A stretch of 64,000 bases of DNA, from positions 416,001-480,000 of the forward strand of contig CP000068.1 of the NCBI GenBank assembly GCA_000002445.1, read 5' to 3'. Within the stretch, counting starts at the first letter, position 1; every line of letters starts with the position of its first letter. A program made the position numbers and the translations under genes. Under the pieces are notes generated by a model. That model had not been told where the DNA came from. It was given only the letters and a program-made list of their open reading frames with translations, and did not search any database. The DNA is from Trypanosoma brucei. Its lineage: Eukaryota. Shown here in pieces: positions 14,324-47,133 of this stretch.

Positions 14324-16777
14324 ATGCCGAATTCGGCACCGATGAAAACAATACCGCCGAAGTCGCGTGTTCCCCCCGATTGGATTCACCCGGCGCTGCA
14401 TCGCCAGTGGCAGAGACGTGATAAATTGAGGACTCCACACGAATTGCGACTTGAGGAATTAGATGTTCAACGAACGGAGATGGAGGAAGCGAGCCGCCGC
14501 ATTATGAGCATTGTCTCAGAGAAGAAGAGCGCACTTGAGAAGTTGGATCGTCAACGAGAGAAGGCAAAGGCAGATATCGATCTCGATGAGGCGGCGGCAG
14601 GTGAGATAACTGGTGTTCTTGATCGACTAACCAGTCAGATTACTGTCCATAAGACGTTGCCGCGGTGCGATGCACGACTTTTAGACACCAGCGACAGCGA
14701 GAATTTTGCGTCGGGTACTGCGCATTGTGTCCTGAGTGTGGAATGCGGTAGCACATGGGGGGCTGTGGCGTCATGTTTCCCCTGCGACAATGAAATAAAG
14801 CGTTCTTTCTTTTCTCAGTACGCACCTCTCTTCAATGTCACATCTGACGACTCATCGGCAGCACAGAAGGTGGGAGGAGCCGCTTTCTTTGACGAAGGTT
14901 GCCTCCTGTCTGTAGACCAGGTCAGTTGCTTTAACCCGGCATGTCCCTACTGGCACAAAGAACAACTAACGCATTTGAAGCTTACCGCTCGAAAACTTGT
15001 TTCTCGCGCTGCCAATTTTATCCGTGGGAATCGCAACAACTGTGATGTTGCAGCCTTGTTTCACCGTTTTCGTATGTCCATGGAGGCGTCAACCGCTCTG
15101 CACGATGCTGTAAGGATTGAGAGGGATATGATGAACTGCATTGCGACGCTGGGTTGGGCGGCGATATTCTTGCAGAAGGACGAAGTGGCGGAAAACAAAC
15201 AAGGGAGGTATCGACCGCCACCAAGCCGTATCACGTGGGATGCGCCGATTCAGTCAAAACCACACATGCCTCTGATGCAAAAATTGTATTCACTACTGCG
15301 CAACCCTCAAGAATGTAGCGCCTGGGAGTCCTTGATCGGCTCATCACCATCCACTCTCATAGCCGACGCTGTGTCACTTTTCCAGCGTCACGTGGATGTG
15401 CTTTCGTGGCGTTGCCTCATGCGAGTTGCTGGCGATACGCCGGAGCGCCTGTTGTGGCTGGCGTCACGAGGGATTGAAATCTTTCCAACATCTCCGTCCA
15501 TACGCCTTTCGCACCTTTACGCCCTTCTGCACTCTGGCAACACTGCATCAGAGTGTGTGGATGTATGCTTGGAGTCGGTGCGGATTCTCTCTGTGCAAGC
15601 CTCAAAATGCACATTATCCTCGTCCGGTAAGGTAGAGTGGAGTGAAAGTGTGGCGCGGTATATCGCTTACATGATTGCGATGACATGTGTGCGCGTTGCC
15701 CCAATGGACGCCCAGGCGGCAATGCGGTTGCTTACCTACGCAGTGAAGGTTCCTGGTAGGGTGTGCCTCCTTCCGCTAGCCCAGCAGAATTTAACCCTTA
15801 TGTTGATTGCTATTTGCCAGACTGGAAAACTGGAGGGAATGAATGACCTCCCGCTGGCATCCATCTCAGATGTGACATTTGCACTTAGTGAGCACTTCCC
15901 TGGTAGGCCGCAGGATGCATGTGCAGGGCTATTATCACGGCAGTTGAACATGAACGCCGGATGCGCAGCTGCTGGCATAGACGCGGAGCTAATGGATCGC
16001 ATGCAATCTGCTGTTCATCTCTCGCTGATGCGCGCCTTCTCTTCAAATGCCGTACTTGTGGAGAGAATACTGACAAAAGTAAAGATGGGCTCCGTGACTG
16101 CCATGGCGGAGTTATGGTGCGACTACCTTCGCGTTGTACGCCAACACGATGGCACAGAGGCTCTTGTTTCTCTAATTCGCCCGTTACTTGAGGAGTGCGA
16201 GTCCCCACTGCTCATTTTGCACTTTGTGAAAATCCTAGACTTCAACGCAGAAGATACAACGGCTGTAGCGAGATCTGCTGTTCAACGCTTTGCTGAGGAG
16301 AACGGTATCGCAGTGGAAAACATTGCCTCTTTGGCATCCAGTGAAACCGTCACTTTTCCCGTTAGCGATTGGGTTCCCTTTATTTTATTGCATGCTAGAA
16401 GCTTGGCTCCCCAGCAGCGTGTGGAGCTGATCTTTAGTATCCCCCCTGTATTATATTGTGAGGTACCCGAGTTGGTGTTTTTGTTGTGGTTTGAGATCAT
16501 TCCGCCTACCCTGCTACTTAAGGATGACGAACTCTTCCGACGGTGTGCGGAGTATGGATTAGTGTTGCTGCGGGAGCCGTTCCTGAATCACTTTAGCCCA
16601 ATAGATTGCAACTTTGACGAAATGATTGCGATTCCCCACATAGCTAGTCTAGCACTATACCGTGCCGTGCCTGTACTGTTGGGGGCGGCTCATCATCTCA
16701 CTGCACACTATCGAAAGATCGTGTTGGATGTTAGTACTGAGTTGCACGTGATACATCCGTATCTATACGCAACGTAG
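14324..16777 (+). CDS. Hypothetical protein (~817 aa) with one candidate CCCH-type zinc finger (C-x8-C-x4-C-x3-H)
   Basis: The track ORF 13790..16777 begins at a GTG. Its first ~178 codons run through a pyrimidine-rich low-complexity tract typical of a trans-splice acceptor region. The first convincing in-frame ATG is at 14324 (MPNSAPMKT). The motif CLLSVDQVSCFNPACPYWH lies at ~14889-14955. Confidence 0.5.
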   Translation: MPNSAPMKTIPPKSRVPPDWIHPALHRQWQRRDKLRTPHELRLEELDVQRTEMEEASRRIMSIVSEKKSALEKLDRQREKAKADIDLDEAAAGEITGVLDRLTSQITVHKTLPRCDARLLDTSDSENFASGTAHCVLSVECGSTWGAVASCFPCDNEIKRSFFSQYAPLFNVTSDDSSAAQKVGGAAFFDEGCLLSVDQVSCFNPACPYWHKEQLTHLKLTARKLVSRAANFIRGNRNNCDVAALFHRFRMSMEASTALHDAVRIERDMMNCIATLGWAAIFLQKDEVAENKQGRYRPPPSRITWDAPIQSKPHMPLMQKLYSLLRNPQECSAWESLIGSSPSTLIADAVSLFQRHVDVLSWRCLMRVAGDTPERLLWLASRGIEIFPTSPSIRLSHLYALLHSGNTASECVDVCLESVRILSVQASKCTLSSSGKVEWSESVARYIAYMIAMTCVRVAPMDAQAAMRLLTYAVKVPGRVCLLPLAQQNLTLMLIAICQTGKLEGMNDLPLASISDVTFALSEHFPGRPQDACAGLLSRQLNMNAGCAAAGIDAELMDRMQSAVHLSLMRAFSSNAVLVERILTKVKMGSVTAMAELWCDYLRVVRQHDGTEALVSLIRPLLEECESPLLILHFVKILDFNAEDTTAVARSAVQRFAEENGIAVENIASLASSETVTFPVSDWVPFILLHARSLAPQQRVELIFSIPPVLYCEVPELVFLLWFEIIPPTLLLKDDELFRRCAEYGLVLLREPFLNHFSPIDCNFDEMIAIPHIASLALYRAVPVLLGAAHHLTAHYRKIVLDVSTELHVIHPYLYAT

Positions 16778-17301
16778 TGTGGAAAAGAAAAGATATATAT
16801 ATATATATATATATGTATTTGTATGAAGGAAGGTGAGAATGCGCATGAGAAGGTTTCGTTATCACGAGGTGACTCACTTAACTTCGACAGATATGACTGC
16901 ACTTGCGGCAAGGGTCGAAACCCAGCACACTCTAAACACATAATCACGCTGACGACCCTTAACATGTTTTTAATGTTTGTTTGTGTTGTCCCGCGGGCTG
17001 GATGCTAATAATGCGAGCCGGGGTGGGTGGATGGGGTGAGTCTTATTCGTTCTGTTTACCACTAGTCCACTGATTTTGGGCGCTTTCCTTCCTTGTTTGT
17101 GTTTGTTTATTTTATTTTTTCACTATTCATTTTAGTTCTTTTTTTGTTTTGTTTCATAGCGGCTTTCAAAGCAGCGCACCCTTCCCTTTAGGTGAGTTGT
17201 GTTTACCTTCTCAATCTGTTACGAAGGGGTTTGCTTTAGGTATTTGGTTACCTTTACTTCGCTGAAAAAGGAGTAAGTGGGGATTGTCTGCTGCAGGTGC
17301 T

Positions 17302-31654: not shown

Positions 31655-32010
31655 ACGAATCTTAAATTCAATTCCCGCAATTCCTTCACATGCTTTAGTC
31701 CTCTTACCTTCTGTAAGCCGATACATTCACGAATATCAATAACCTCCATCTTTACACATCCACCCACATATACATCTTCCAACGCTTTACACTTTTCAAT
31801 GGACAGTTTGAGATGATTATTTGCTTCACGCACATCAACATTACGCAAGAGCTCACACTCATCAATTCGTATTTCCCTTATACTCTCATGATATCTGAAC
31901 ATACTAAAACTTTTAATACTGCCACAATTACTCACAAGAAAGCTCTTCAAGGCTTTACATTGCCCCAAGCCCTTTAACCTGCCTATACCCTGACAGTGCG
32001 TGGGTTTCAC
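31655..32010 (-). pseudogene. LRRP fragment truncated at both ends (array-terminal partial copy)
   Basis: The ORF 31624..32010 shares the first ~115 aa with the truncated LRRP copies (MKPTHCQGIGRLKGL...). It then diverges into flanking sequence (RFVGLMDLGRLK) at the array boundary ~31655, and has no ATG at its 5' end. Confidence 0.6.
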
Positions 32011-32563
32011 ATTGCCATATACCCAGTTTGTTAGTGATTGTGGGTTTTATTAAATATTGTTACTGACGCCATTGTTTCATGAGCCGTGTCAGGTCCCTGC
32101 AGGTCTCACTAAAATTGCATACGAAATATGCCCATTTACCTCACTATTCCCTTCACGGAATATTTTCTTATTACACCATAAATAGGGGGAAATGCATTCA
32201 TTACTGAATGGCCAGACCACACCTCCACGTCTTTAAACTATTTAGTCAGAAAATTGCACATCTTACAAACACTGTTTCATATGAGGGGAGGAGTGTGCTA
32301 CACATGCGCCTTTACTTCACGCCAGCTTGGGCTGTAGATATGCACATACAACCCATTTTCACATCTCCCGTAATATTTATTACAGAAAAAATAGTTTATT
32401 ATTTTTATTTTAAGGGGAAGGGGGACGGAGGGAGGGAGAAAAATATCATATATAATGGAAGGGAAACCTCTCCCGCAACAGGTGAGAAATTTTTAAATTG
32501 TAACCTCTCCAGAGGTTAGCCCTTCCTAAACTAAGCAAAATAAGCAAGAGATGATAATATCAT

Positions 32564-33868
32564 TCATTCCTTCCTGTAACATGGAGAGGTTGCCCCACCC
32601 TTTTTGTCAGGTGAAGAAACTGCCTCACCTTTCTCATCAATTACATCTTCAGCATTACCTCTTCTTCGTCTCACAAACACAAGCACCACAGCTGTAATAA
32701 TCGCGAGGATAGCGACAGGTATGAGAACAGCCATAAGTATTACCTTGCTTTCCTTGATCTTACTGCTTAGTGCTGATCTATCACTAGTCTCCAGGAGGTC
32801 ACCGAAGTCCGCATCAGCTCCAACGACCTCTGGTTCGGTTCCACTTGTTGTTCCTGTTCCTGTTCCTGTTGATATTGTTGTTGATGTTCCTCCTGTTGTT
32901 TCTGTTGCCCCACCCTCTCCAGTTGAAGTGCCAACCCCTCGGTGTGTGGTCTCGGGAGCGGCACCTCCAGGGTTAGTGAATTTTGCACCCTTTCTGCTTG
33001 CTTCCTTGGCTTCGACCAAAACTTCGCTGAGTGGCTTGCCTGCACTCAGTCCGCTGTGGACAGCACTTGCACCACTATAAAAGCCAGATACATCATCATG
33101 AGTCTTTTTACCTTGTTCGTGTGACTCTTCGAGTTCCTTAAGCTTGTTCGTGGCTGAGTCATAGTCGGCCTTCCAGTTGTTGGTGACTGGCTGTTGGCCT
33201 TTTGGTTTCTTATTTTCCCATTCTTCTAAGGCTTGTTTCATCGTCCCTGAGGATATATCGTCATAAAGTGTTGTTTTGTGACCCGTTGCTTCGCAGTCAA
33301 TGGTATTCCTTCCCGTCCCTGAATAATGGGTTTTGAACGTAATACCTTCACAGCTAGTGGTCTGTGCATTATCTCCCTTCTTCCCGCAGTACCACTCTAA
33401 AAGCTGGTGAAGTCCACTGGAATTTTGGCCGTCATAGTCAAGTTCCCATCCTCGCGCCTTTTTTGCCGCTTCTGTCGCAGCCTGGCAGCGTTTTTTCGCT
33501 TCCTCGCCATACATTTTCGCTGTTGGCAGCTTATTCTTTAATTTATCCTTCGCCTTTTCGTATATGTCCTTCACTTTTTTAGTATCAGCATCCGAAAGCT
33601 TCGAATAGCCATCGTTACTGTGTGCACGGTTTTCCAGTGTTTGTAACCAGTGTTCCAACCTGTCCAGCCAGAGTTGTATATCATCCGCAAAGCCTTGAGT
33701 TTTTTCTCGGATTTTGTCTGCCCTTCTTTTTTCTATAGTTTTAGCAAGATCCGTCAGCTTACATAGCGCCAATGCACCTTCCTTGTTTAGCTTTGTCTCC
33801 CCATTTGCTTCCACCGCTCGTAGCAGTAAACCTGCAAAGGTAACCGCAACCAAGGAACACCTTATCAT
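32564..33868 (-). CDS. ISG64: Invariant surface glycoprotein, ISG65 family (ISG64-like), copy A: type I membrane protein
   Basis: The 434-aa protein has a signal peptide (MIRCSLVAVTFAGLLLRAVEA), a helical ectodomain with conserved Cys, and a Thr/Gly-rich stalk (GTSTGEGGATETTGGTSTTISTGTGTGTTSGTEPE). A single TM (VILMAVLIPVAILAIITAVVLVFV) is followed by a short Lys-containing cytoplasmic tail (RRRRGNAEDVIDEKGEAVSSPDKKGGATSPCYRKE). Three tandem copies interleaved with LRRP match, from memory (no search), the T. brucei chr5 ISG64 cluster. Confidence 0.8.
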   Translation of the reverse strand: MIRCSLVAVTFAGLLLRAVEANGETKLNKEGALALCKLTDLAKTIEKRRADKIREKTQGFADDIQLWLDRLEHWLQTLENRAHSNDGYSKLSDADTKKVKDIYEKAKDKLKNKLPTAKMYGEEAKKRCQAATEAAKKARGWELDYDGQNSSGLHQLLEWYCGKKGDNAQTTSCEGITFKTHYSGTGRNTIDCEATGHKTTLYDDISSGTMKQALEEWENKKPKGQQPVTNNWKADYDSATNKLKELEESHEQGKKTHDDVSGFYSGASAVHSGLSAGKPLSEVLVEAKEASRKGAKFTNPGGAAPETTHRGVGTSTGEGGATETTGGTSTTISTGTGTGTTSGTEPEVVGADADFGDLLETSDRSALSSKIKESKVILMAVLIPVAILAIITAVVLVFVRRRRGNAEDVIDEKGEAVSSPDKKGGATSPCYRKE

Positions 33869-34306
33869 ATTTCCCTTGTATCAAACTTCGCTTCTTTGTA
33901 TATTTCGCAAGCCAGTTCACTCTCCCACATAAATACAATTATGCACAAAAAGAAGCAATACTCATAGAATCATCAGCAAACATTATTGTAACTTTAGCAA
34001 TACAACCGCAGTTATCATCTTTACTTCCACTTCATAATCATATTATCTTACAAAGGCAATCACATCATTCCAACAGTAACAACTTTCCACTCTCAGATAT
34101 CCTGTTGATATCCTTGTCTCCTAGTTTTGCTGAAGGATAAAATAAATATTCTGCCACACCAACTTATAGTTGCTTATGGTTTCTCTTATTTCCAATTCCA
34201 TGGGAGGAGGATACACATATGCATATATCATGTATGAAAGAAGTATTTCCTTTTGATGTGATGATTACTGGGTATGAACAAACAAATAGTAACATTCATA
34301 AATTAG

Positions 34307-34939
34307 CTACCTAACAACTTGGTCATTATGAGTAGAATGGGAGGTGTCATTGTCACCGCTACGTTTCGAATAGTATTCTGTTTCACTGATAACTTCCACC
34401 CTGTAGTTGAATAATTTCAGCCTCTCCTGTGTAACCACACTATCAGAAATCACAATACTCCTCAGCACCCTACAATATCTCAAAAATCTCAAATCCTCCA
34501 GTTTCTCACAACACTTCACATTCAGCTTTTCCAACCTCGTGTCTTCATACCTGTGTATTCCCGTTATCTCTCGCAGGTTTCGACACCCGGATAAATTCAA
34601 TTCCCGCAATTCCTTCACATGCTTTAGTCCTCTTACCTTCTGTAAGCCGATACATTCACGAATCTCAATAACCTCCATCTTTACACATCCACCCACATAT
34701 ACATCTTCCAACGCTTTACACTTTTCAATGATCAGTTTGAGAAGATTATCTGCTTCACGCACATCAACATTACGCAAGAGCTCACACTCATCAATTCGTA
34801 TTTCCCTTATACTCTCATGATATCTGAACATACTAAAACTTTTAATACTGCCACAATTACTCACAAGAAAGCTCTTCAAGGCTTTACATTGCCCCAAGCC
34901 CTTTAACCTGCCTATACCCTGACAGTGCGTGGGTTTCAC
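34307..34939 (-). CDS. Leucine-rich repeat protein (LRRP, ESAG8-related), 5'-truncated copy; possible pseudogene
   Basis: Its 210 codons match the C-terminal 210 aa of the full-length copy at 40190..41098. The ORF-track start is a GTG at the repeat-unit junction. A stop lies 17 codons upstream, and the first in-frame ATG is codon 36. Confidence 0.55.
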   Translation of the reverse strand: MKPTHCQGIGRLKGLGQCKALKSFLVSNCGSIKSFSMFRYHESIREIRIDECELLRNVDVREADNLLKLIIEKCKALEDVYVGGCVKMEVIEIRECIGLQKVRGLKHVKELRELNLSGCRNLREITGIHRYEDTRLEKLNVKCCEKLEDLRFLRYCRVLRSIVISDSVVTQERLKLFNYRVEVISETEYYSKRSGDNDTSHSTHNDQVVR

Positions 34940-35493
34940 ATTGCCATATACCCAGCCTTTTATCGACCATGAGTTTATTAGATATTGTTAACTGACGCCA
35001 TTGCTTCATGAGCCGTGTCAGGTCCCTGCAGGTGTCGCTAAAAATGCATACGAAATATGCCCATATACCTCATTACTCCCTTACCGGAATATTTTTTTAT
35101 TACACCATAAATAGGGGGAAATATATTCATTACTGAATGGCCAGACCACACCTCCACATCTTTAAATTATTTAGTCAGAAAATTGCACATCTTACAAACA
35201 CTGTTTTATATGGGGGGGAGGGGTGTGCTACACATGCGCCTTTACTTCACGCCAGCTTGGGCTGTAGATATGCACACACAACCCATTTTCACATCTCCCG
35301 TAATATTTATTACAGAAAAAATAGTTTATTATTTTTATTTTAAGGGGAAGGGGGACGGAGGGAGGGAGAAAAATATCATATATAATGGAAGGGAAACCTC
35401 TCCCGCAACAGGTGAGAAATTTTTAAATTGTAACCTCTCCAGAGGTTAGCCCTTCCTAAACTAAGCAAAATAAGCAAGAGATGATAATATCAT
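34940..35493 (-). promoter_or_regulatory. Conserved ISG 3' flank / 3'UTR-intergenic segment (repeated at ~32011-32563 and 37879-38432), candidate mRNA-processing and stage-regulation region
   Basis: It is ~550 nt, almost base-for-base identical between repeat units 2 and 3 and highly similar in unit 1. It contains a short inverted repeat (aacctctc cag agaggtt) and poly-purine/pyrimidine tracts. The regulatory role is inferred. Confidence 0.3.
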
Positions 35494-36801
35494 TCATTCC
35501 TTCCTGTAACATGGAGAGGTTGCCCCACCCTTTTTGTCAGGTGAAGAAACTGCCTCACCTTTCTCATCAATTACATCTTCAGCATTACCTCTTCTTCGTC
35601 TCACAAACACAAGCACCACAGCTGTAATAATCGCGAGGATAGCGACAGGTATGAGAACAGCCATAAGTATTACCTTGCTTTCCTTGATCTTACTGCTTAG
35701 TGCTGATCTATCACTAGTCTCCAGGAGGTCACCGAAGTCCGCATCAGCTCCAACGACCTCTGGTTCGGTTCCACTTGTTGTTCCTGTTCCTGTTCCTGTT
35801 GATATTGTTGTTGATGTTCCTCCTGTTGTTTCTGTTGCCCCACCCTCTCCAGTTGAAGTGCCAACCCCTCGGTGTGTGGTCTCGGGAGCGGCACCTCCAG
35901 GGTTAGTGAATTTTGCACCCTTTCTGCTTGCTTCCTTGGCTTCGACCAAAACTTCGCTGAGTGGCTTGCCTGCACTCAATCCACTATGAAGAGCGTACGC
36001 TGCATTATAAAAGCCAGATACATCGTTAACTGTCTTTTTCCCCTTTTCGTGTGACTCTTCGAGTTCCTTAAGCTTGTTCGTGGCTGAGTCATAGTCGGCC
36101 TTCCAGTTGTTGTTGACTGGCTCACCGTCGCTTTTTGGCTTCTTCCTCTCCCAATTCTCTAAGGCCTCTTTCATCGTCCCTGATGTCACATCCAGGTAAA
36201 ACGGCACTGTAGAACCCGTTCCTTTGCAATCAATTGGGTTCCTTTCCCGCCCTAAGTAGTGTTCTTTTACTTTAACACCATCACACTTCTGATTGTTTGC
36301 ATTATCTCCCTTCGTTCCGCAGTACCACTCTAAAAGCTGGTGAAGTCCACTAGAGTTTTGACCCTCATCATCAAGTCCCCATCCTCGCGCCCTCTTTGCT
36401 GCCTCGGTCACCTCCTGATGGCGTTTTCCAGCTTCCTCGCCAAATTCTTTCGCTTTCGGGAGTTGTTCACTCACTTTACCTTTCGCCTTTTCGTATATTT
36501 CCTTCACTTTTTTAGTATCAGCATCCGAAAGCTTCGAATAGCCGTTGTTGCTGTGTGCACGGGTTTCCAGTGTTTGTAACCAGTGTTCCAACCTGTCCAG
36601 CCAGAGTTTCAACTCATCTGCGAAACCTTCAGTGTCCTTTCTGATTTTATCTGCTTTTTTTGTTGCAACAAGATCAGCGACATCCGTCAGCTTACACAGC
36701 GCCAACGCACCATCTTTGGTCAACTTTGCATTCGAGTTCGCTACCACCACTCGTAGCAGTAAACCTGCAAAGGTAATCGCAACCAAGGAATACCTTATCA
36801 T
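35494..36801 (-). CDS. ISG64: Invariant surface glycoprotein, ISG65 family (ISG64-like), copy B
   Basis: The 435-aa protein has the same architecture as copy A. The C-terminal ~150 aa (stalk, TM, tail) are identical to copies A and C, while the ectodomain diverges in a mosaic fashion. Confidence 0.8.
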   Translation of the reverse strand: MIRYSLVAITFAGLLLRVVVANSNAKLTKDGALALCKLTDVADLVATKKADKIRKDTEGFADELKLWLDRLEHWLQTLETRAHSNNGYSKLSDADTKKVKEIYEKAKGKVSEQLPKAKEFGEEAGKRHQEVTEAAKRARGWGLDDEGQNSSGLHQLLEWYCGTKGDNANNQKCDGVKVKEHYLGRERNPIDCKGTGSTVPFYLDVTSGTMKEALENWERKKPKSDGEPVNNNWKADYDSATNKLKELEESHEKGKKTVNDVSGFYNAAYALHSGLSAGKPLSEVLVEAKEASRKGAKFTNPGGAAPETTHRGVGTSTGEGGATETTGGTSTTISTGTGTGTTSGTEPEVVGADADFGDLLETSDRSALSSKIKESKVILMAVLIPVAILAIITAVVLVFVRRRRGNAEDVIDEKGEAVSSPDKKGGATSPCYRKE

Positions 36802-37245
36802 ATTTCCCTTGTATCAAACTTCGCTTCTTTGTGTATTTCGCAAGCCAGTTCACTTTCCCATATAAATGCAATTATGCACACAAAGAAAAACAGGCGATAT
36901 TCATAGAATCATCGGCAAACATTATTGTAGTTTCAGCAATACAACCGCAGTTATCATCTTTACTCCCACTTCATAATCATATTATCTTACAAAGGCAATC
37001 ACATGATTCCAACAGTAATAACTTTCCACTCTCAGATATCCTATTGATATCCTTGTTTTTTAGTTTTGCTGAAGGATAAAATAAATATTCTGCCACACCA
37101 ACTTATAGTTGCTTATGGTTTCTCTTATTTCCAATTCCATGGGAGGTGAGTACACATATGCATATATCATGCATGAAAGAAGTATTTCCTTTTGATGTGA
37201 TGATTACTGGGTATGAACAAACAAATAGTAACATTCATAAATTAG

Positions 37246-37878
37246 CTACCTAACAACTTGTTCATTATGAGTTGAGTGGGAGGTGTCATTGTCACCGCTA
37301 CGTTTTGAATAGTATTCTGTTTCACTGATAACTTCCACCCTGTAGTTGAATAATTTCAGCCTCTCCTGTGTAACCACACTATCAGAAATCACAATACTCC
37401 TCAGCACCCTACAATATCTCAAAAATCTCAAATCCTCCAGTTTCTCACAACACTTCACATTCAGCTTTTCCAACCTCGTGTCTTCATACCTGTGTATTCC
37501 CGTTATCTCTCGCAGGTTTCGACACCCAGATAAATTCAATTCCCGCAATTCCTTCACATGCTTTAGTCCTCTTACCTTCTGTAAGCCGATACATTCACGA
37601 ATCTCAATAACCTCCATCTTTACACATCCACCCACATATACATCTTCCAACGCTTTACACTTTTCAATGATCAGTTTGAGAAGATTATCTGCTTCACGCA
37701 CATCAACATTACGCAAGAGCTCACACTCATCAATTCGTATTTCCCTTATACTCTCATGATATCTGAACATACTAAAACTTTTAATACTGCCACAATTACT
37801 CACAAGAAAGCTCTTCAAGGCTTTACATTGCCCCAAGCCCTTTAACCTGCCTATACCCTGACAGTGCGTGGGTTTCAC
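37246..37878 (-). CDS. Leucine-rich repeat protein (LRRP), 5'-truncated copy; possible pseudogene
   Basis: It is identical to 34307..34939 except one residue (D/E) and has the same junction breakpoint. Confidence 0.55.
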   Translation of the reverse strand: MKPTHCQGIGRLKGLGQCKALKSFLVSNCGSIKSFSMFRYHESIREIRIDECELLRNVDVREADNLLKLIIEKCKALEDVYVGGCVKMEVIEIRECIGLQKVRGLKHVKELRELNLSGCRNLREITGIHRYEDTRLEKLNVKCCEKLEDLRFLRYCRVLRSIVISDSVVTQERLKLFNYRVEVISETEYYSKRSGDNDTSHSTHNEQVVR

Positions 37879-38432
37879 ATTGCCATATACCCAGCCTTTT
37901 ATCGACCATGAGTTTATTAGATATTGTTAACTGACGCCATTGCTTCATGAGCCGTGTCAGGTCCCTGCAGGTGTCGCTAAAAATGCATACGAAATATGCC
38001 CATATACCTCATTACTCCCTTACCGGAATATTTTTTTATTACACCATAAATAGGGGGAAATATATTCATTACTGAATGGCCAGACCACACCTCCACATCT
38101 TTAAATTATTTAGTCAGAAAATTGCACATCTTACAAACACTGTTTTATATGGGGGGGAGGGGTGTGCTACACATGCGCCTTTACTTCACGCCAGCTTGGG
38201 CTGTAGATATGCACATACAACCCATTTTCACATCTCCCGTAATATTTATTACAGAAAAAATAGTTTATTATTTTTATTTTAAGGGGAAGGGGGACGGAGG
38301 GAGGGAGAAAAATATCATATATAATGGAAGGGAAACCTCTCCCGCAACAGGTGAGAAATTTTTAAATTGTAACCTCTCCAGAGGTTAGCCCTTCCTAAAC
38401 TAAGCAAAATAAGCAAGAGATGATAATATCAT

Positions 38433-39737
38433 TCATTCCTTCCTGTAACATGGAGAGGTTGCCCCACCCTTTTTGTCAGGTGAAGAAACTGCCTCACCTT
38501 TCTCATCAATTACATCTTCAGCATTACCTCTTCTTCGTCTCACAAACACAAGCACCACGGCTGTAATAATCGCGAGGATAGCGACAGGTATGAGAACGGC
38601 CATAAGTATTACCTTGCTTTCCTTGATCTTACTGCTCAGTGCTGATCTATCACTAGTCTCCAGGAGGTCACCGAAGTCCGCATCAGCTCCAACGACCTCT
38701 GGTTCGGTTCCACTTGTTGTTCCTGTTCCTGTTCCTGTTGATATTGTTGTTGATGTTCCTCCTGTTGTTTCTGTTGCCCCACTCTCTCCAGTTGAAGTGC
38801 CAATCCCTCGCTGTGTGGTTTCGGGAGCGGCACCTCCAGGGTTAGTGAATTTTGCACCCTTTCTGCTTGCTTCCTTGGCTTCGACCAAAACTTCGCTGAG
38901 TGGCTTGCCTGCACTCAGCCCACTATGGACAGCGTACGCTGCATTGTAAAAGCCAGATACATCATCATGAGTCTTTTTACCTTGTTCGTGTGACTCTTCT
39001 AGTTCTTCCATTTTTTTCACAGCTGAGTCGTAGTCGCTTTTCCATTTCTCGTAGTCAGCACTTATTTTTTTCGGTTTCTTCTTCTCCCAATCCTCTAAGG
39101 CTTGTTTCATCGTCCCTGCGGATACATGTAAGTAAAAGAGAGCCGTATAGCCCGTTGCTTCGCAATCAATGGTATTCCTTCCCGTCCCTGAATAATGGGT
39201 TTTGAACGTAATACCTTCACAGCTAGTGCTCTGTGCATTTTCTCCCCTCTTCCCGCAGTACCACTCTAAAACTAGATGAAGTCCACTGGAATTTTGACCC
39301 TCATCATCAAGTCCCCATCCTCGCGCCCTCTTTGCTGCCTCGGTCACAGCCTGGCAGTGTTTTTTTGCTTCATCGCCCCATTTTTTAGCTTCTGGCAGCT
39401 TCTCCTTTAATTTATCCTTTGCCTTTTCGTATATGTCCTTCACTTTTTTAGTATCAGCATCCGAAAGCTTCGAATAGCCATCGTTACTGTGTGCAGGGTC
39501 TTGTAGCGTCTGTAACCAACTGTCCAAGCTGTCCAACCAGAGCTTCAATCCATGTGCAAAGCCTTCAGTATCCCGTCCAATCTTATCTGCTTTTTTATCT
39601 CCGACAGTTTTAGCAAGATCCGTCAGCTTACATAGCGCCAACGCACCATCTCTGTTCAACTTTGCATTCGAGTTCGCTACCACCACTCGTAGCAGTAAAC
39701 CTGCAAAGGTAACCGCAACCAAGGAATACCTTATCAT
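38433..39737 (-). CDS. ISG64: Invariant surface glycoprotein, ISG65 family (ISG64-like), copy C
   Basis: The 434-aa protein has the same architecture. Its ectodomain is a patchwork of segments shared with copy A (SCEGITFKTHYSGTGRNTIDCEATG) and with copy B (GWGLDDEGQNSSGLH; NAAYA-HSGL). Confidence 0.8.
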   Translation of the reverse strand: MIRYSLVAVTFAGLLLRVVVANSNAKLNRDGALALCKLTDLAKTVGDKKADKIGRDTEGFAHGLKLWLDSLDSWLQTLQDPAHSNDGYSKLSDADTKKVKDIYEKAKDKLKEKLPEAKKWGDEAKKHCQAVTEAAKRARGWGLDDEGQNSSGLHLVLEWYCGKRGENAQSTSCEGITFKTHYSGTGRNTIDCEATGYTALFYLHVSAGTMKQALEDWEKKKPKKISADYEKWKSDYDSAVKKMEELEESHEQGKKTHDDVSGFYNAAYAVHSGLSAGKPLSEVLVEAKEASRKGAKFTNPGGAAPETTQRGIGTSTGESGATETTGGTSTTISTGTGTGTTSGTEPEVVGADADFGDLLETSDRSALSSKIKESKVILMAVLIPVAILAIITAVVLVFVRRRRGNAEDVIDEKGEAVSSPDKKGGATSPCYRKE

Positions 39738-40189
39738 ATTTCCCTTGTATCAAACTTCGCTTTTTTAGTTTATATATATTTTCGCAAGCCAGTTCACTTT
39801 CCCATATAAATGCAATTATGCACACAAAGAAAAACAGGCGATATTCATAGAATCATCGGCAAACATTATTGTAACTTTAGCAATACAACCGCAGTTATCA
39901 TCTTTACTCCCACTTCATAATCATATTATCTTACAAAAGCAATCACATGATTCCAACAGTAATAACTTTCCACTCTCAGATATCCTATTGATATCCTTGT
40001 TTTTTAGTTTTGCTGAAGGATAAAATAAATATTCTGCCACACCAACTTATAGTTGCTTATGGTTTCTCTTATTTCCAATTCCATGGGAGGTGAGTACACA
40101 TATGCATATATCATGTATGAAAAAAGTATTTCCTTTTGATATGATGATTACTGGGTATGAACAAACAAATAGTAACATTCATAAATTAG

Positions 40190-41098
40190 CTACCTAACAA
40201 CTTGTTCATTATGAGTTGAGTGGGAGGTGTCATTGTCACCGCTACGTTTTGAATAGTATTCTGTTTCACTGATAACTTCCACCCTGTAGTTGAATAATTT
40301 CAGCCTCTCCTGTGTAACCACACTATCAGAAATCACAATACTCTTCAGCACCCTACAATATCTCAAAAATCTCAAATCCTCCAGTTTTTCACAACACTTA
40401 ACATTCAGCTTTTCCAACCTCGTGTCTTCATATCTGTGTATTCCCGTTATCTCTCGCAGGTTTCGACACCCGGATAAATTCAATTCCCGCAATTCCTTCA
40501 CATGCTTTAGTCCTCTTACCTTCTGTAAGCCGATACATTCACGAATATCAATAACCTCCATCTTTACACATCCACCCACGTATACATCTTCCAACGCTTT
40601 ACACTTTTCAATGGACAGTTTGAGAAGATTATCTGCTTCACGCACATCAACATTACGCAAGAGCTCACACTCATCAATTCGAATTTCCCTTATACTCTCA
40701 TGATATCTGAACATACTAAAACTTTTAATACTGCCACAATTACTCACAAGAAAGCTCTTCAAGGCTTTACATTGCCCCAAGCCCTTTAACCTGCCTATAC
40801 CCTGACAGTGCTTGAGTTTTACACTTTCTAACGCTTTGCAGTGCTTCAGAGGTTCTAATTCAGAAACTGTGCGACAGTCTGTAACCGTTATTTTCTGTAA
40901 ACCATATAACTGTTCCACTCCTTTAAAGGTTTTGAACTCATCACATTGTTTTATATCCAGGCTTTTGGTGGCGGTGAATTCACGGGAAAGTATCACCAAG
41001 TTTTTTAAACCCCTAAATTTCGCAATCTTTAGAGTTTCTTGGAAATAACTATACGGAACTTCCGTTTCTTCTCTCGCCCTCTTCGCCACAATGTTCAT
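40190..41098 (-). CDS. Leucine-rich repeat protein (LRRP; ESAG8-related LRR family), full-length copy relative to the array fragments
   Basis: The 302-aa protein starts at an ATG (41098, MNIVAKRAR...). It has repeated ~23-24 aa LRR units with conserved C/L/N positions (e.g. LKHCKALESVKLKHCQGIGRLKGLGQCKALKSFLVSNCGSIKS). Its 3' two-thirds are identical to the array copies. Confidence 0.7.
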   Translation of the reverse strand: MNIVAKRAREETEVPYSYFQETLKIAKFRGLKNLVILSREFTATKSLDIKQCDEFKTFKGVEQLYGLQKITVTDCRTVSELEPLKHCKALESVKLKHCQGIGRLKGLGQCKALKSFLVSNCGSIKSFSMFRYHESIREIRIDECELLRNVDVREADNLLKLSIEKCKALEDVYVGGCVKMEVIDIRECIGLQKVRGLKHVKELRELNLSGCRNLREITGIHRYEDTRLEKLNVKCCEKLEDLRFLRYCRVLKSIVISDSVVTQERLKLFNYRVEVISETEYYSKRSGDNDTSHSTHNEQVVR

Positions 41099-43383: not shown

Positions 43384-46300
43384 TCATAACGTTACCGTAA
43401 AGCCATCAGTATCGCTCAACTGCCCAGTGGCGATACTTGTGCTGCGTCCCGTGGATTGAGAGACCACGGTGTGATCTATGACCTTTCCAACCTTCGCAGC
43501 AACAATATGTATGACTTGCCTACAGTAGTCATCGCTCCATACGAATCCTGCCTCGGGTGGCAACGCAACACGCCACCGTTCGCAAAAGGGCATCAGTGCT
43601 TTCCGTCGTTGTGCGGCTGTAAACGTGCCCAGTAGGGCATTGAGGGAGTCGACAATAGTTTGGGCTGAACGCGTTATTGCATTGCCTGAGAGACCGCGTT
43701 CGCCGCTGGAAATAGAGCCTTCAGAGCTATCCCCGAAGACACAAGTGTCCTTATCGATATCCAGCGCTGCAAAGATCCTTCCCGGCACAGCATTCAGTTG
43801 CCATATTTCCACAGGTGCGTTCACACCGCGAAGTTCAACGGGAGCAAGTGCGGTGACATCAATTTGCTCACGCTCCTCAGCTGAAAGTGACATGTATGTC
43901 GCACGTGTCATTAACACCTGCCCACCATCTGCCACACCTTCCGTCCGCGCTGCCATGTTTGATGTGTGCCCGTAGTAGTCATATCCTTTAGTAACCTCAT
44001 CATTCCGAATTTCGCATAACCCGGTGTGAATCCCAACACGCACACGCAGGCCACTCCACAGCTGGTCGTACACGTTAGGATCCAGATGTGCGGACGGCGG
44101 AGTATACCCCTCTTCTTCTTCAGCTCGCCGCCGCTCCATATCTCGGTAGAGCTCATCGAACGCGGTCGTTCCCCAGTTGTGGTGCAAGAATGTCCGTTGC
44201 AGATCATGTGCAAGCTGTACGGCAGCGAAGGGGTCCTTGCAAGCAATCATGAAGGAGTCTCCAACCGTCTTTACCTCATAACAGTTGTATCGCACAATAA
44301 GTGACCGAATCAAACGGTGGTGCAGGTCAACAGCATCGGGCATCAACTCGGGGTATGCCGACCACTGCGCAGTGCTGCTTTCAATGTCTGTGAAAACAAG
44401 CGTCACAGGATCTGACAGTTCCTTCGGCGCATTCCCGTTGTCACGGGCACTACGCTGTGCGAAGTACAATTGACAAACAACTATCGCCACAAACAGAAAC
44501 ACAGTGAAGAGAGAACCAACGACGATGCCTATGAGCGTTGAGCCTGTAGATCCAGCCGCGTTCGGGTCATGATATTGCATCGACGGCGTGACGGGTAGAG
44601 CGAGAGCGGGTACAGAGGCATTCAACACACGTGCCATCGACCACACGGAGATGCGGGTTGCTCCATAGTTCACAGCACATCCACCATCGCCAAGACCATC
44701 GACATCGTCGTTAACACACTCACCATGGTTGAAAGGGCCATAGTACATATCGCCGGCACTCACACCGATGTTGTTATAGAAAAGATTAATCACCGTCTCC
44801 CCGCTCACCTTTTCTATACGCGGAATGATAGTCCGAACTACTCGTGCGGCGGCGAAACCCACCAATGCCAATGGCGTCCACTGCGCTGGGTCTGGAAGCG
44901 CGGCGTGAAAGCCCTGTACAATTTCGGATGAGCTGTGGACCTCTGCCCAGTGCGGCAGGTTTGTTGCAATTAGCAGTCGGTTGGCGCTTGAGCTACCGTT
45001 GAAAGCTTTCAAAACCTCATCGTATAGAAGCACAACATCGAAGAACGGAACCAGCACATGTACGTCCGGGTTGCGTTCCATGTGTGCCACTACTGAACCA
45101 ACATCGCTGGCAGTGAGACCAATTATGAACACATTGCCGTAAACAGGAAGTGCACCTTCTATTGTTTCATTGACTCGTGCTGTCACCAGAGAATGCGGCG
45201 TCACACCAAATGTCGCGAGCGTCCTTGTCAGTACGTCCCCGATTGCATTAGAGTCCTCCCCCCGAATGACGGCCCGCACGCCGCTGCCGCTGCTGCTCGA
45301 AATGTATGCCGCCAACACGAACAGTTGTTGCTCAAGTGTAGGCGACAAATGGATCACATTCTTCATACGGCGATTTAGCTGTGGGGTGAGGGGCACGGGA
45401 TCAATGAACGCCAAACCCGGCGTCCGCATTATTGTAGGATGCACTACGCCAAATACGGCTGTAACTGTCCTGGTATTCAACTCTTGCTGCAAGCTACCAG
45501 TCAGCCCATCTGAAAGTGCGGGAAGCGTATGCATAAATACCCTATTCGACTGCTCATGATGCCCCCTACTAACGCTGACCGATGCCGCATTGCGCATAAT
45601 TGTCGCCGCCCTTAATGCAATGGGGTCATCTAATGTTAGGATGAAAAGACCGATTAGCGGAGCGTGCAACCCACCGGAATCACTGTAGCACCCTGATACG
45701 TCGCGCGTGATTAGCCCATCCGCCAAGGGCGAAAGGTTACCGTTCTCTTCCAACCTGTTCATGTAAATCACATGCCCACCCTGGTTACAACGGCATGTAG
45801 CGCCCTGAGCAGCTGCGGAGCCTGTGCATTCGCCACCGTAGTCACCAATGACGAGGTCATCAATCACGTACCGGCGCTGATTGTACAGCGATTTTTTAAA
45901 TTCTTCCCTGCTCGTTAGCCACTCGCGATTGCTTAGCGCTTGCAGCAGTGCCTCACCGGCAACCCATCCAAGCACCGCCAGCTTCCCAGTGGTGGCATGC
46001 TTGAGAAAATGGTCTTCACCACCGGGGCTACTTTCGTTCTTTTGCGCCTTTAGATATGACCTCATTTCCTTCTGAAACCGTCGTACGGCATGGTGTTTGA
46101 CGTCGGTTGCGAGCGGGTTTGTTCCCGTGATAATAACTTGACCTGACGCAAAGGCGACCTTTCCACTTCGACGGAGTTCTTCAGCTATGATGCTAATAGC
46201 TGGCTGCAGCGCAGATGGGGCCAGGATGTACATGTCTTTTGTGCGTTCGTCCGAAGGCACCGCCAAAAGAAACTTGAACGTATCTGTGTTGGGAGGCCCT

Positions 46301-47133
46301 AATACAAGCACACCCTGCGGATGCAAGGAAGCGAATCGACTCCACATCGCATTGAAGACTTCACCGCTAGCCGAACCATAATCGGAACTTTCTAGCGCAA
46401 AAACTCCGCAGAGATCACGCCCCATTCTTGACATCAGCCTCATCGTGAGTTCATACTGTACCTCACCATAAGAGGTATTGTGCAAATGCATTAAACCCAA
46501 TCGAAGTGGTCGTAGTTGACTCAGTGCGTAGTAAATGAGGGCGATGAGTTCGGCAACAGGATCGGCTCCAAGGAAGTACAAATGCGGTGTCCACTTGCGG
46601 AGCCCGCTTGACCCAGTAACTGGGGCGAAGGCAATTACATTGTGCTTTTCGAGTAGAGGTGTCACGGCTAAGACATCACGGTCACTCAACGGCCCGAGCA
46701 GCACCAGCAATTCCGATTTGTTTGAAAGTTTCTTGTCAAGCGCATCAATGCTTTGATTACCATAAGATCCCCAGCTTACAGGAACAACGTGCACATTTCG
46801 CGCTGCGGTCCAATTACGTGCAGCGAGCGAGCTGTTGAAACCAGAAATGATGGCATCACCAATTGGTGAGGGAGCACGGAGGCCACGCATAAGGCACAGC
46901 ACAGTCACTGTAACGTTATCTCCCGAATGCACGGAAGCCCGCAGTGGCATCGGAAGCAACATCAACAGCGAAAACATAAACAATGGCACCCACAACCTTG
47001 GGACTCTTGAGTTATCCTTCCCTTCACAGCGAAGGCCAACACCAACACCATTGGCGCTCCCTTTAACGTGGACGGACTTTTCTCCTCCTCTTTTTCTCCA
47101 TTTGTTCCCGAGTAAACTCGTCCTGTCGTTCAT
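43384..47133 (-). CDS. GRESAG4: Receptor-type adenylate cyclase, GRESAG4/ESAG4 family
   Basis: The 1249-aa protein has a large extracellular periplasmic-binding-protein-like domain and a single TM (LIGIVVGSLFTVFLFVAIVVCQLYF). The C-terminal class III cyclase catalytic domain carries FTDIESSTAQWS, VKTVGDSFMIA and GHTSNMAARTE motifs. An alternative start at 46977 (MFSLLMLLPMPLRA signal peptide) would remove a 52-aa N-terminal leader. Confidence 0.85.
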   Translation of the reverse strand: MNDRTSLLGNKWRKRGGEKSVHVKGSANGVGVGLRCEGKDNSRVPRLWVPLFMFSLLMLLPMPLRASVHSGDNVTVTVLCLMRGLRAPSPIGDAIISGFNSSLAARNWTAARNVHVVPVSWGSYGNQSIDALDKKLSNKSELLVLLGPLSDRDVLAVTPLLEKHNVIAFAPVTGSSGLRKWTPHLYFLGADPVAELIALIYYALSQLRPLRLGLMHLHNTSYGEVQYELTMRLMSRMGRDLCGVFALESSDYGSASGEVFNAMWSRFASLHPQGVLVLGPPNTDTFKFLLAVPSDERTKDMYILAPSALQPAISIIAEELRRSGKVAFASGQVIITGTNPLATDVKHHAVRRFQKEMRSYLKAQKNESSPGGEDHFLKHATTGKLAVLGWVAGEALLQALSNREWLTSREEFKKSLYNQRRYVIDDLVIGDYGGECTGSAAAQGATCRCNQGGHVIYMNRLEENGNLSPLADGLITRDVSGCYSDSGGLHAPLIGLFILTLDDPIALRAATIMRNAASVSVSRGHHEQSNRVFMHTLPALSDGLTGSLQQELNTRTVTAVFGVVHPTIMRTPGLAFIDPVPLTPQLNRRMKNVIHLSPTLEQQLFVLAAYISSSSGSGVRAVIRGEDSNAIGDVLTRTLATFGVTPHSLVTARVNETIEGALPVYGNVFIIGLTASDVGSVVAHMERNPDVHVLVPFFDVVLLYDEVLKAFNGSSSANRLLIATNLPHWAEVHSSSEIVQGFHAALPDPAQWTPLALVGFAAARVVRTIIPRIEKVSGETVINLFYNNIGVSAGDMYYGPFNHGECVNDDVDGLGDGGCAVNYGATRISVWSMARVLNASVPALALPVTPSMQYHDPNAAGSTGSTLIGIVVGSLFTVFLFVAIVVCQLYFAQRSARDNGNAPKELSDPVTLVFTDIESSTAQWSAYPELMPDAVDLHHRLIRSLIVRYNCYEVKTVGDSFMIACKDPFAAVQLAHDLQRTFLHHNWGTTAFDELYRDMERRRAEEEEGYTPPSAHLDPNVYDQLWSGLRVRVGIHTGLCEIRNDEVTKGYDYYGHTSNMAARTEGVADGGQVLMTRATYMSLSAEEREQIDVTALAPVELRGVNAPVEIWQLNAVPGRIFAALDIDKDTCVFGDSSEGSISSGERGLSGNAITRSAQTIVDSLNALLGTFTAAQRRKALMPFCERWRVALPPEAGFVWSDDYCRQVIHIVAAKVGKVIDHTVVSQSTGRSTSIATGQLSDTDGFTVTL

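What the first reader, a model, noticed from the sequence alone, without database searches (positions are those of the whole stretch)
31655..41098. Three-copy ISG65-family (ISG64-like) tandem array interleaved with LRRP fragments
Three complete type I membrane glycoprotein genes sit on 2.94 kb repeat units. Each has a signal peptide, helical ectodomain, T/G-rich stalk, one TM and a lysine-bearing tail. Their final ~150 codons and 3' flanks are identical, but the ectodomain-coding ~0.9 kb differs substantially between copies. ISG65-family proteins are abundant bloodstream-stage surface receptors (ISG65 is established as a complement C3-binding receptor). Copy-specific ectodomains could therefore mean different ligand specificities or antigenic differences. 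The array structure itself is read directly from the sequence.
Basis: partly seen in the sequence, partly recalled or inferred. Interest (0 to 1): 0.7.

Follow-up and report, generated by a model that had tools for sequence, protein, structure and literature searches.

The report
Known ISG64 surface-protein gene array

Summary
The window is T. brucei brucei TREU927 chromosome 5. The three minus-strand ORFs (434, 435 and 434 aa) match exactly the annotated proteins Tb927.5.1390, 1410 and 1430, which the literature calls ISG64. They sit on 2929/2939/2944-bp repeat units interleaved with LRRP pieces (Tb927.5.1400, 1420, 1440).

Family membership holds. Pfam PF11727 scores E 1e-47 to 1e-51. The best PDB sequence and fold matches are all ISG65 (TM 0.82-0.87).

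Published work already shows bloodstream-form expression of all three genes, recognises three ISG64 sub-groups, and describes ISG64's disordered stalk. The find is therefore not new.

My own analysis adds four points:
- The array is a(ba)n, built on a 349-bp LRRP block present n+1 times. This holds in T. b. gambiense (3 genes) and T. equiperdum (1 gene).
- The stalk, TM, tail and proximal 3' UTR are homogenised (dS 0.02-0.05). The head-coding 0.8 kb is old (dS 0.47-0.65, dN/dS about 0.3) and strongly mosaic.
- Head repertoires differ between subspecies.
- Only 4 of 24 ISG65 C3-contact positions are conserved, so a like-for-like C3 receptor role is unlikely.

The ligand remains unknown.

The parts
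40190..41098 (-). Full-length LRRP gene Tb927.5.1440 (302 aa). It is the first gene of the array in the direction of transcription, and its codons from about 93 onward start the repeated DNA.
   Evidence: ORF. LRR Pfam hits. Exact match to XP_844818 / Tb927.5.1440.
40475..40823 (-). 'a' block copy 1: a 349-bp LRRP segment that recurs four times and bounds every repeat unit.
   Evidence: Junction alignments. blastn finds 4 copies at 97.7-100% identity.
38433..39737 (-). ISG64 gene Tb927.5.1430 (434 aa).
   Evidence: ORF. PF11727 E 1.9e-47. Exact match to XP_844817. Named ISG64.
37246..37879 (-). N-terminally truncated LRRP piece (annotated Tb927.5.1420, 174 aa), including 'a' block copy 2 (37531-37879).
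35494..36801 (-). ISG64 gene Tb927.5.1410 (435 aa).
   Evidence: ORF. PF11727 E 1.3e-50. Exact match to XP_844815. Listed as '64 kDa ISG Tb927.5.1410' in Sullivan 2013.
34307..34940 (-). N-terminally truncated LRRP piece (annotated Tb927.5.1400, 174 aa), including 'a' block copy 3 (34592-34940).
32564..33868 (-). ISG64 gene Tb927.5.1390 (434 aa), the last gene of the array and of its transcription unit.
   Evidence: ORF. PF11727 E 5.3e-51. Exact match to XP_844813. Named ISG64.
31663..32011 (-). Terminal 'a' block copy 4: an LRRP piece truncated at both ends. Homology to the other LRRP copies stops abruptly at 31663.
   Evidence: Alignment A4. blastn. ORF 31624-32010.
32293..33048 (-). Homogenised module of copy 1390: the end of helix 3, stalk, TM, cytoplasmic tail and proximal 3' UTR. 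The equivalents are 35223-35978 (copy 1410) and 38162-38917 (copy 1430).
   Evidence: The three copies are 99.1-100% identical here. dS is 0.016-0.05 and dN 0-0.008. Only 8 variable sites occur in the tract.
33049..33868 (-). Divergent, mosaic head-coding tract of copy 1390. The equivalents are 35979-36801 (copy 1410) and 38918-39737 (copy 1430).
   Evidence: dS 0.47-0.65, dN 0.17-0.20. Site patterns form 80 runs against 150 +/- 7 expected, with a longest run of 26 against 5.7.
33302..33364 (-). Most discrete cassette: 26 consecutive informative sites at which copy 1410 differs from 1390 = 1430. It covers aa 169-190, equivalent to ISG65 head loop L2.
33176..33199 (-). Hypervariable patch, aa 224-231, at the site of ISG65 loop 3, which is about 19 aa shorter in ISG64. 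All columns vary.
   Evidence: About 32.7 nonsynonymous against 3.3 synonymous differences. The rest of the head has 262 against 180. Nominal Fisher p = 5e-5, but the window was chosen post hoc.
33947..33955 (-). Short polypyrimidine run followed by AG, 51-59 nt upstream of the ATG. It is a candidate trans-splice acceptor signal (inferred only). The equivalents are 36882-36890 and 39826-39834.
   Evidence: Sequence scan. No transcript data were examined here.

Best explanation
This is the ISG64 locus of T. brucei TREU927 chromosome 5 (Tb927.5.1390-1440).

What the genes encode. There are three co-expressed isoforms of a bloodstream-stage type I membrane glycoprotein, each with these parts:
- a signal peptide;
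- an ISG65-type curved three-helix-bundle head with disordered membrane-distal loops;
- a disordered T/G-rich stalk;
- one TM helix;
- a short tail with four lysines, which in the related ISG65 and ISG75 drive ubiquitin-dependent endocytosis and turnover.

How the array arose (inferred). Unequal homologous crossing-over between two 349-bp LRRP-derived direct repeats flanking a single ISG64 gene gave the structure a(ba)n. The LRRP 'fragments' are by-products of that process.

How it evolves (shown by sequence statistics).
- Gene conversion keeps the 3' module nearly identical between copies. That module is the end of helix 3, stalk, TM, tail and proximal 3' UTR.
- The 0.8-kb head-coding part is a patchwork of old, diverged sequence cassettes exchanged in short tracts.
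- Each strain therefore carries its own set of heads.

Function (inferred). The heads keep the ISG65 scaffold under purifying selection, but most ISG65 residues that contact complement C3 are replaced. ISG64 is therefore most likely a receptor-like or immunodominant surface protein with a ligand other than C3 bound the ISG65 way. The head variants most plausibly provide antigenic and/or ligand-allele breadth.
For: Identity.
- Exact protein matches to the annotated genes.
- The ISG64 name, lengths, TM positions and lysine count agree with Zoltner 2015 and Sullivan 2013.

Family and fold.
- PF11727 and PDB ISG65 sequence hits.
- The AF2 model has three long helices at pLDDT 70-89, with low-confidence head loops and stalk.
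- The Foldseek top five are all ISG65, TM 0.82-0.87 normalised to the target.
- Sulzen 2024 showed the disordered linker of TbgISG64 experimentally.

Expression.
- All three genes are up-regulated in bloodstream forms.
- Two ISG64 protein groups were quantified by SILAC.
- ISG64 is strongly recognised by patient IgG.

Array structure.
- The junctions are sharp.
- 'a' blocks number n+1 for n ISG64 genes in TREU927 (4/3), the T. b. gambiense syntenic locus (4/3) and T. equiperdum (2/1).

Evolution.
- dS is 0.47-0.65 in the head and 0.016-0.05 in the C-terminal part. Head dN/dS is 0.30-0.36.
- Mosaic test p < 1e-4.
- At least 6 head types occur across three genomes at 64-83% identity. The 1410-type is shared at 98% with T. 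b. gambiense, but at a different array position.
- The same behaviour was published for the sister ISG65 array (Jackson 2010).

C3 surface.
- Only 4 of 24 ISG65 contact positions are identical in all copies, against 77 of 226 elsewhere in the head.
- Substitutions are non-conservative: E59K (charge reversal), E74W, Y76D, K84T.
- Arg77 is lost in copy 1430. Tyr293, essential for C3d binding in TbgISG65, is lost in copy 1390.
- Loop 3 with its disulphide is absent.
Against: - No ligand for ISG64 has been reported, and I could not test binding. A remodelled surface could still bind C3 or a C3 fragment differently.
- Two of three interface-2 residues (H189, Y190) and W81 are conserved.
- Average dN/dS of about 0.3 and the even spread of variable sites (interface 12/24 against rest 122/228, p = 0.83) give no clear signal of adaptive diversification. 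The only dN > dS patch is 9 codons, chosen post hoc, and contains an indel.
- Unequal crossing-over is inferred from structure only. The T. equiperdum single copy could be an ancestral state, a collapse, or an assembly artefact.
- The AF2 model is low-confidence overall (mean pLDDT 55.7) because it rests on an 8-sequence alignment.
Confidence: 0.9

Rival explanations
1. Dosage array with neutral head variation. The three genes exist mainly to raise ISG64 output in a genome without gene-specific promoters. On this view the head differences are functionally irrelevant leftovers of old alleles shuffled by recombination.
For: - Jackson 2007 and 2010 treat tandem arrays in T. brucei largely as dosage devices with incidental mosaic variation.
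- Head dN/dS is about 0.3 everywhere except one tiny patch.
- Variation is not focused on any known binding surface.
- T. equiperdum appears to manage with one copy.
Against: - A sharp boundary, conserved across subspecies, separates homogenised from non-homogenised DNA. That suggests conversion across the head is selected against or fails, and divergence this large may itself block conversion.
- The 1410-type head persists at 98% identity in two subspecies, while other heads differ by 25-35%.
- The loop-3 patch shows dN far above dS.
Confidence: 0.3
2. ISG64 copies are complement C3 receptors like ISG65. On this view the head differences tune binding to C3 of different mammalian hosts.
For: - Same fold and family as ISG65.
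- W81, H189, Y190 and K97 are conserved, and Arg77 and Tyr293 are each present in two of the three copies.
- The stalk, TM and tail architecture matches.
Against: - 20 of 24 contact positions are not conserved in all three copies, many non-conservatively (E59K charge reversal; E74W, Y76D, K84T).
- Loop 3 is missing.
- Deleting the ISG65 locus alone gave an infection phenotype (Macleod 2022).
- A 2026 screen of 37 surface proteins, including ISG-family representatives, found C3 binding only for ISG65. The panel list is an image, so I could not confirm that ISG64 was included.
Confidence: 0.1
3. Assembly artefact: the three copies, or their differences, result from mis-assembly of a repeat.
For: Repeats of 2.9 kb with near-identical 3' halves are hard to assemble. 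The T. b. gambiense record holds extra ISG64 copies appended near its end, which shows that such loci do cause assembly trouble.
Against: - Each copy has a unique head, which anchors it.
- An independent T. b. gambiense assembly has the same three-copy layout at the syntenic site.
- Copy-specific microarray signals and separate proteomic groups exist.
Confidence: 0.03

Closest known systems
ISG64 of T. brucei (Tb927.5.1390/1410/1430; T. b. gambiense Tbg972.5.6550)
   Same: Identical. The window proteins are these entries residue for residue. Lengths, TM positions and lysine counts match the published table.
   Different: Nothing differs. This is the same locus.
ISG65, the complement C3/C3b receptor (Tb927.2.3270-3320; PDB 7pi6, 7zgj, 8ovb)
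   Same: - Same Pfam family and curved three-helix-bundle fold.
- Same order of signal peptide, head, disordered stalk, TM and lysine tail.
- Bloodstream-stage expression.
- Also a tandem array with mosaic, subspecies-specific copies.
   Different: - About 35-40% identity in the head.
- 20 of 24 C3-contact positions are not conserved in all three ISG64 copies.
- Loop 3 (about 19 aa, with the C240-C251 disulphide) is absent.
- The stalk is T/G-rich.
- The array unit contains a second (LRRP) gene piece.
- The locus is on chromosome 5, not chromosome 2.
ISG75 and other trypanosome three-helix-bundle receptors (HpHbR, factor H receptor, MISP, GARP)
   Same: Elongated helical-bundle ectodomains on the trypanosome surface. 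They appear as weaker fold matches (ranks 6-18).
   Different: Fold scores are much lower (E 2e-3 or worse; TM 0.2-0.5 for most). They belong to different families and bind different ligands.
Partially concerted tandem arrays in T. brucei (Jackson 2007, 2010)
   Same: Tandem duplication, gene-conversion mosaics, subspecies-specific isoforms and divergent edge copies.
   Different: The ISG64 array is not listed in Jackson 2010's Table 2. Its unit holds two genes, and homogenisation stops at a sharp intragenic boundary.

Membership tests
ISG65-75 superfamily (Pfam PF11727) | Profile match above the curated gathering score | tested here: met
   174, 172.7 and 162.3 bits against a cut-off of 25.1, covering profile positions 24-279 of 281.
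ISG65-75 superfamily (Pfam PF11727) | Elongated, curved three-helix-bundle ectodomain | tested here: met
   The AF2 model has helices 29-79, 93-139 and 232-276 at pLDDT 70-89. Foldseek gives ISG65 chains at TM 0.82-0.87 normalised to the target, E 1e-7 to 3e-15. The model is low-confidence outside the helices.
ISG65-75 superfamily (Pfam PF11727) | Type I topology: signal peptide, single TM, short cytoplasmic tail with lysines | tested here: met
   Read from the sequences. TM 376-398 and 4 lysines, as tabulated by Zoltner 2015. No dedicated signal-peptide predictor was available.
ISG65-75 superfamily (Pfam PF11727) | Intrinsically disordered membrane-proximal linker | tested here: met
   pLDDT is below 50 for residues 295-354, which form a T/G/S-rich low-complexity stretch. 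SAXS and HDX experiments on TbgISG64 are in Sulzen 2024.
ISG64 (the chromosome 5 sub-family) | Identity with the genes named ISG64 | tested here: met
   Exact sequence matches to XP_844813, XP_844815 and XP_844817. The interleaved accessions and locus tags Tb927.5.1400/1420/1440 fix the ISG genes as 1390/1410/1430. These are named ISG64.
ISG64 (the chromosome 5 sub-family) | Bloodstream-stage-specific expression at the cell surface | not testable with these tools
   Literature only. Transcripts are 3.6-17x higher in bloodstream than procyclic forms. The protein is quantified in bloodstream forms and is immunoreactive with patient IgG.
ISG65-type complement C3 receptor (functional class) | Conservation of the residues that contact C3d/TED and the CUB domain | tested here: not met
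   4 of 24 positions are identical in all three copies. Tyr293 becomes Ser in copy 1390 and Arg77 becomes Ser in copy 1430. E59K is a charge reversal, and E74W, Y76D and K84T are non-conservative. The numbering was checked.
ISG65-type complement C3 receptor (functional class) | Measured binding to C3, C3b or C3d | not testable with these tools
   No published ISG64 binding data were found. The 2026 screen's panel is unreadable.
Tandem array under partial concerted evolution | Head-to-tail repeat units with homogenised segments and recombinant mosaics | tested here: met
   Units of 2929, 2939 and 2944 bp. The 756-bp module is 99.1-100% identical between copies. Mosaic runs test p < 1e-4.

The most novel reading that the evidence does not exclude
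The 'invariant' ISG64 may in fact be a small, strain-variable, recombining repertoire of heads. At least six types occur in three genomes, and a hypervariable patch sits in a membrane-distal loop. The heads would be kept distinct by selection, while a constant stalk-TM-tail-UTR module is copy-corrected. The different heads would bind different ligands or host alleles, or escape cross-reactive antibody. That would make ISG64 a low-copy analogue of variant antigen systems, not a single invariant receptor.
Probability: 0.25. Interest if true: 0.45.

Novelty: already known. Interest (0 to 1): 0.15.

Why it matters
The locus itself adds nothing new. It has been annotated since the 2005 genome. ISG64 is a known bloodstream-form antigen used in diagnostic development.

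The secondary observations have modest value, for two reasons.

First, ISG64 is one of the most abundant and immunogenic 'invariant' antigens, and its ligand is still unknown. The ISG65 C3-contact surface is not conserved in it. That argues against assuming it is a second C3 receptor and justifies an unbiased ligand search.

Second, head repertoires differ between TREU927, T. b. gambiense and T. equiperdum. This bears on the uneven performance of ISG64-based serology between T. b. gambiense and T. b. rhodesiense sera, and on any vaccine use.

Tried and rejected
- **Word-indexed homology searches.** Searches with the full protein and with a head-only profile returned only the ISG64 clade. The exhaustive HMMER search returned only 8 representatives. 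The family is trypanosome-restricted and no wider context exists.
- **2026 complement screen.** I tried to learn whether ISG64 was tested (10.64898/2026.08.17.745214). The panel table is an image and no supplement is held, so this is unresolved.
- **Variation at the ISG65-C3 interface.** There is no enrichment with 3 copies (9/24 against 101/250, p = 0.83) or with 7 head types (12/24 against 122/228, p = 0.83).
- **Helical periodicity of variability.** It is nominally significant only in helix 1 (p = 0.015) and not in helices 2 and 3. That is too weak to assign a variable face.
- **Per-element dN/dS.** No element exceeds 1 except the 9-codon loop-3 remnant. I treat this as a lead only, because the window was chosen post hoc, the pairwise counts are not independent, and an indel is present.
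- **RNA genes and short repeats.** tRNA, Rfam and short-period tandem-repeat scans of the region found nothing.
- **Antisense ORFs.** The antisense ORFs of 151-158 aa inside the stalk-coding regions (for example 32604-33080) are by-products of low-complexity sequence and match nothing, so I rejected them as genes.
- **Neighbouring large ORFs.** The two ORFs of about 990 aa at 13.8-20.3 kb are unrelated to each other.


Full report
**1. What is there**

Between 31.6 and 41.1 kb the minus strand carries, in the direction of transcription:
- a 302-aa leucine-rich-repeat protein gene (40190-41098);
- three ORFs of 434, 435 and 434 aa (38433-39737, 35494-36801, 32564-33868);
- two truncated LRRP ORFs between them (37246-37878, 34307-34939);
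- a shorter LRRP piece after the last one (31624-32010).

Direct-repeat analysis gives start-to-start spacings of 2929, 2939 and 2944 bp. A unit-by-unit alignment shows 97-100% identity in the flanks and 61-96% per 100 nt in the 5' two-thirds of each long ORF.

**2. Whose genome, and which genes**

The three proteins are exact matches to XP_844813, XP_844815 and XP_844817 of Trypanosoma brucei brucei TREU927, on a 1,608,198-bp chromosome record. The interleaved LRRP ORFs match Tb927.5.1400, Tb927.5.1420 and Tb927.5.1440. That fixes the three long genes as Tb927.5.1390, 1410 and 1430.

The literature calls these genes ISG64:
- Sullivan 2013 lists '64 kDa ISG, Tb927.5.1410' among antigens bound by patient IgG, and cloned three sub-groups, ISG64-1, -2 and -3.
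- The Zoltner 2015 correction tabulates ISG64 as Tb927.5.1390/1410/1430, with lengths 434/435/434, TM at 376-398 (377-399 for 1410) and four cytoplasmic lysines.
- Jensen 2009 reports all three transcripts raised in bloodstream over procyclic forms: 5.5x, 17.1x and 3.6x.
- Sulzen 2024 characterised the T. b. gambiense ISG64 in solution and still refers only to 'potential ligands'.

So the locus, its family, its expression and its sub-groups are already on record.

**3. Family membership, tested here**

- Pfam PF11727 (ISG65-75) matches at 162-174 bits against a cut-off of 25.1.
- The best solved-structure relatives by sequence are ISG65 chains 7pi6, 7zgj and 8ovb, E 1e-58 to 1e-65.
- An AlphaFold2 model of Tb927.5.1410, built on an 8-sequence alignment, has three long helices (29-79, 93-139, 232-276) at pLDDT 70-89. 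The head loops (141-202) and stalk (295-354) are low-confidence, and the mean pLDDT is only 55.7.
- Foldseek against the PDB returns ISG65 entries as the top five hits (TM 0.82-0.87 normalised to the target). The haptoglobin-haemoglobin receptor, factor H receptor and ISG75 follow far behind.
- An exhaustive HMMER search of 1.84 billion representatives finds only eight relatives, so the family is restricted to trypanosomes.
- One N-glycosylation sequon (N149) and four ectodomain cysteines are conserved in all copies.

**4. Anatomy of the array**

Alignment of the junctions shows two sharp edges.
- Homology between the full LRRP gene and the truncated copies begins at 40823 (equivalents 37879, 34940, 32011).
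- The last LRRP piece loses homology at 31663 (equivalents 40475, 37531, 34592).

A 349-bp LRRP block 'a' therefore occurs four times. The locus reads X-a-b-a-b-a-b-a-Y over 31663-40823, where 'b' holds the LRRP 3' end, an ISG64 gene and its flanks.

The same rule, n genes with n+1 'a' blocks, holds at the syntenic T. b. gambiense locus (3 genes, 4 blocks) and in T. equiperdum (1 gene, 2 blocks). This is the footprint expected of unequal homologous crossing-over between flanking repeats. That step is an inference.

The array is the last element of a minus-strand transcription unit. Plus-strand genes end at 28896, so 28.9-31.6 kb is a convergent strand-switch region.

**5. Two evolutionary regimes inside one gene**

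- From the stop codon back to codon 273, and about 270 nt into the 3' UTR, the copies are nearly identical. Copies 1390 and 1410 are base-identical over 700 bp (32348-33048). Copy 1430 differs at 7 bases, giving 3 amino-acid changes. Here dS is 0.016-0.05.
- In codons 23-272, dS is 0.47-0.65 and dN 0.17-0.20, so dN/dS is 0.30-0.36. The head differences are therefore old. On average they are constrained, not recent adaptive change.
- The head-coding DNA is a mosaic. The 226 informative three-sequence sites fall into 80 runs, against 150 +/- 7 in shuffles. The longest run is 26 sites against 5.7 expected, and it coincides with the ISG65 loop-L2 equivalent.
- Across 11 ISG64 genes from three genomes there are at least six head types at 64-83% identity. 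The 1410-type recurs at 98% in T. b. gambiense but in a different array position. The single T. equiperdum head equals the second T. b. gambiense type. C-terminal modules are most alike within a genome.
- Jackson 2010 described this behaviour for the sister ISG65 array and for 31 of 35 variable arrays. The chromosome 5 ISG64 array is not in their table.

**6. Does ISG64 look like a C3 receptor?**

I anchored ISG65 numbering on motifs named in the papers and confirmed it on full-length TbgISG65. I then mapped three sets of contacts:
- the 18 TED-interface residues of Macleod 2022;
- the three CUB-interface residues of Cook 2024;
- three further contacts of Sulzen 2023.

Only W81, H189, Y190 and K97 are identical in all three ISG64 copies. 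That is 4 of 24, against 77 of 226 elsewhere in the head.

Several changes are non-conservative: E59K (a charge reversal), E74W, Y76D and K84T. Arg77 is Ser in copy 1430. Tyr293, whose mutation abolishes C3d binding in TbgISG65, is Ser in copy 1390. Loop 3, with its disulphide, is absent.

Variation among ISG64 heads is not enriched at these positions (p = 0.83 with 3 copies or with 7 types).

The most variable stretches are aa 221-240, 41-70, 21-30 and 171-200. The only place where dN exceeds dS is a 9-codon patch at the loop-3 remnant, with 32.7 nonsynonymous against 3.3 synonymous differences (nominal p = 5e-5). It was chosen post hoc and contains an indel, so it is only a lead.

**7. Verdict**

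The small corrections concern the array end-points, the full-length status of the upstream LRRP gene, and three residue differences in the 'identical' tail of copy 1430.

The finding is an already annotated and studied locus, so it scores low for novelty and interest.

The heads are distinct, old, recombining and strain-specific. Three things temper it:
- on average the heads are under purifying selection;
- they do not vary preferentially at the ISG65-C3 interface;
- they have largely lost that interface.

The ISG65 analogy should therefore not be carried over to ISG64 without binding data.

Noticed in passing
window 28896-31624: Convergent strand-switch region. Plus-strand genes end at 28896 and minus-strand genes begin at 31624, so the ISG64 array is the last element of its polycistronic unit. 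No tRNA or Rfam family was found there, and GC skew changes sign near 31 kb.
   Followed up: partly
window 43384-47133 (-): A 1249-aa receptor-type adenylate cyclase (GRESAG4-like: two periplasmic-binding-protein domains plus a cyclase domain) lies immediately upstream of the array. The same neighbour is present in T. b. gambiense and T. equiperdum. GRESAG4 and ISG64 were both among the antigens bound by patient IgG in Sullivan 2013, though that paper lists a different GRESAG4 gene.
   Followed up: partly
window 33485-33487 (codon 128 of Tb927.5.1390); equivalent codon 128 of Tb927.5.1430 at 39354-39356: Copies 1390 and 1430, and several T. b. gambiense copies, carry a fifth ectodomain cysteine (C128, in helix 2). 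Copy 1410 has His there. An unpaired cysteine could allow disulphide-linked dimers or adducts in some isoforms only.
   Followed up: no
L004 and L001 (T. b. gambiense FN554968.1, 1.335-1.386 Mb): The T. b. gambiense chromosome 5 record holds at least four more full ISG64 genes plus fragments near its end. They sit next to genes that lie elsewhere in TREU927 (STT3, MatE, fumarate-reductase-like). These may be unplaced or allelic contigs appended to the record, or a true second array. If real, T. b. gambiense has at least 7 ISG64 genes.
   Followed up: partly
L002 (T. equiperdum CM010676.1, 493-515 kb): The syntenic locus has a single ISG64 gene flanked by two 'a' blocks. Its head is 99% identical to the second T. 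b. gambiense copy and only 64-71% identical to the TREU927 heads. Copy number and head type therefore both vary between close relatives, or the repeat collapsed in assembly.
   Followed up: partly
window 33869-34306 compared with 36802-37245 and 39738-40189: The 5' intergenic region of the terminal copy (1390) differs from those of the other two, which are nearly identical to each other (83-94% against 97-100%). This is an 'edge copy escapes homogenisation' pattern. It could give copy 1390 a different 5' UTR or splice-site usage.
   Followed up: no
window 13790-16777 and 17284-20259 (+): Two adjacent ORFs of about 990 aa have no Pfam match and no similarity to each other. They are presumably kinetoplastid-specific hypothetical proteins.
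   Followed up: partly
window 32604-33080, 35534-35989, 38473-38949 (+): Antisense ORFs of 151-158 aa lie opposite the stalk/TM-coding parts of each ISG64 gene. They are repeated because the DNA is repeated, and they are low-complexity. I judged them not to be genes.
   Followed up: no
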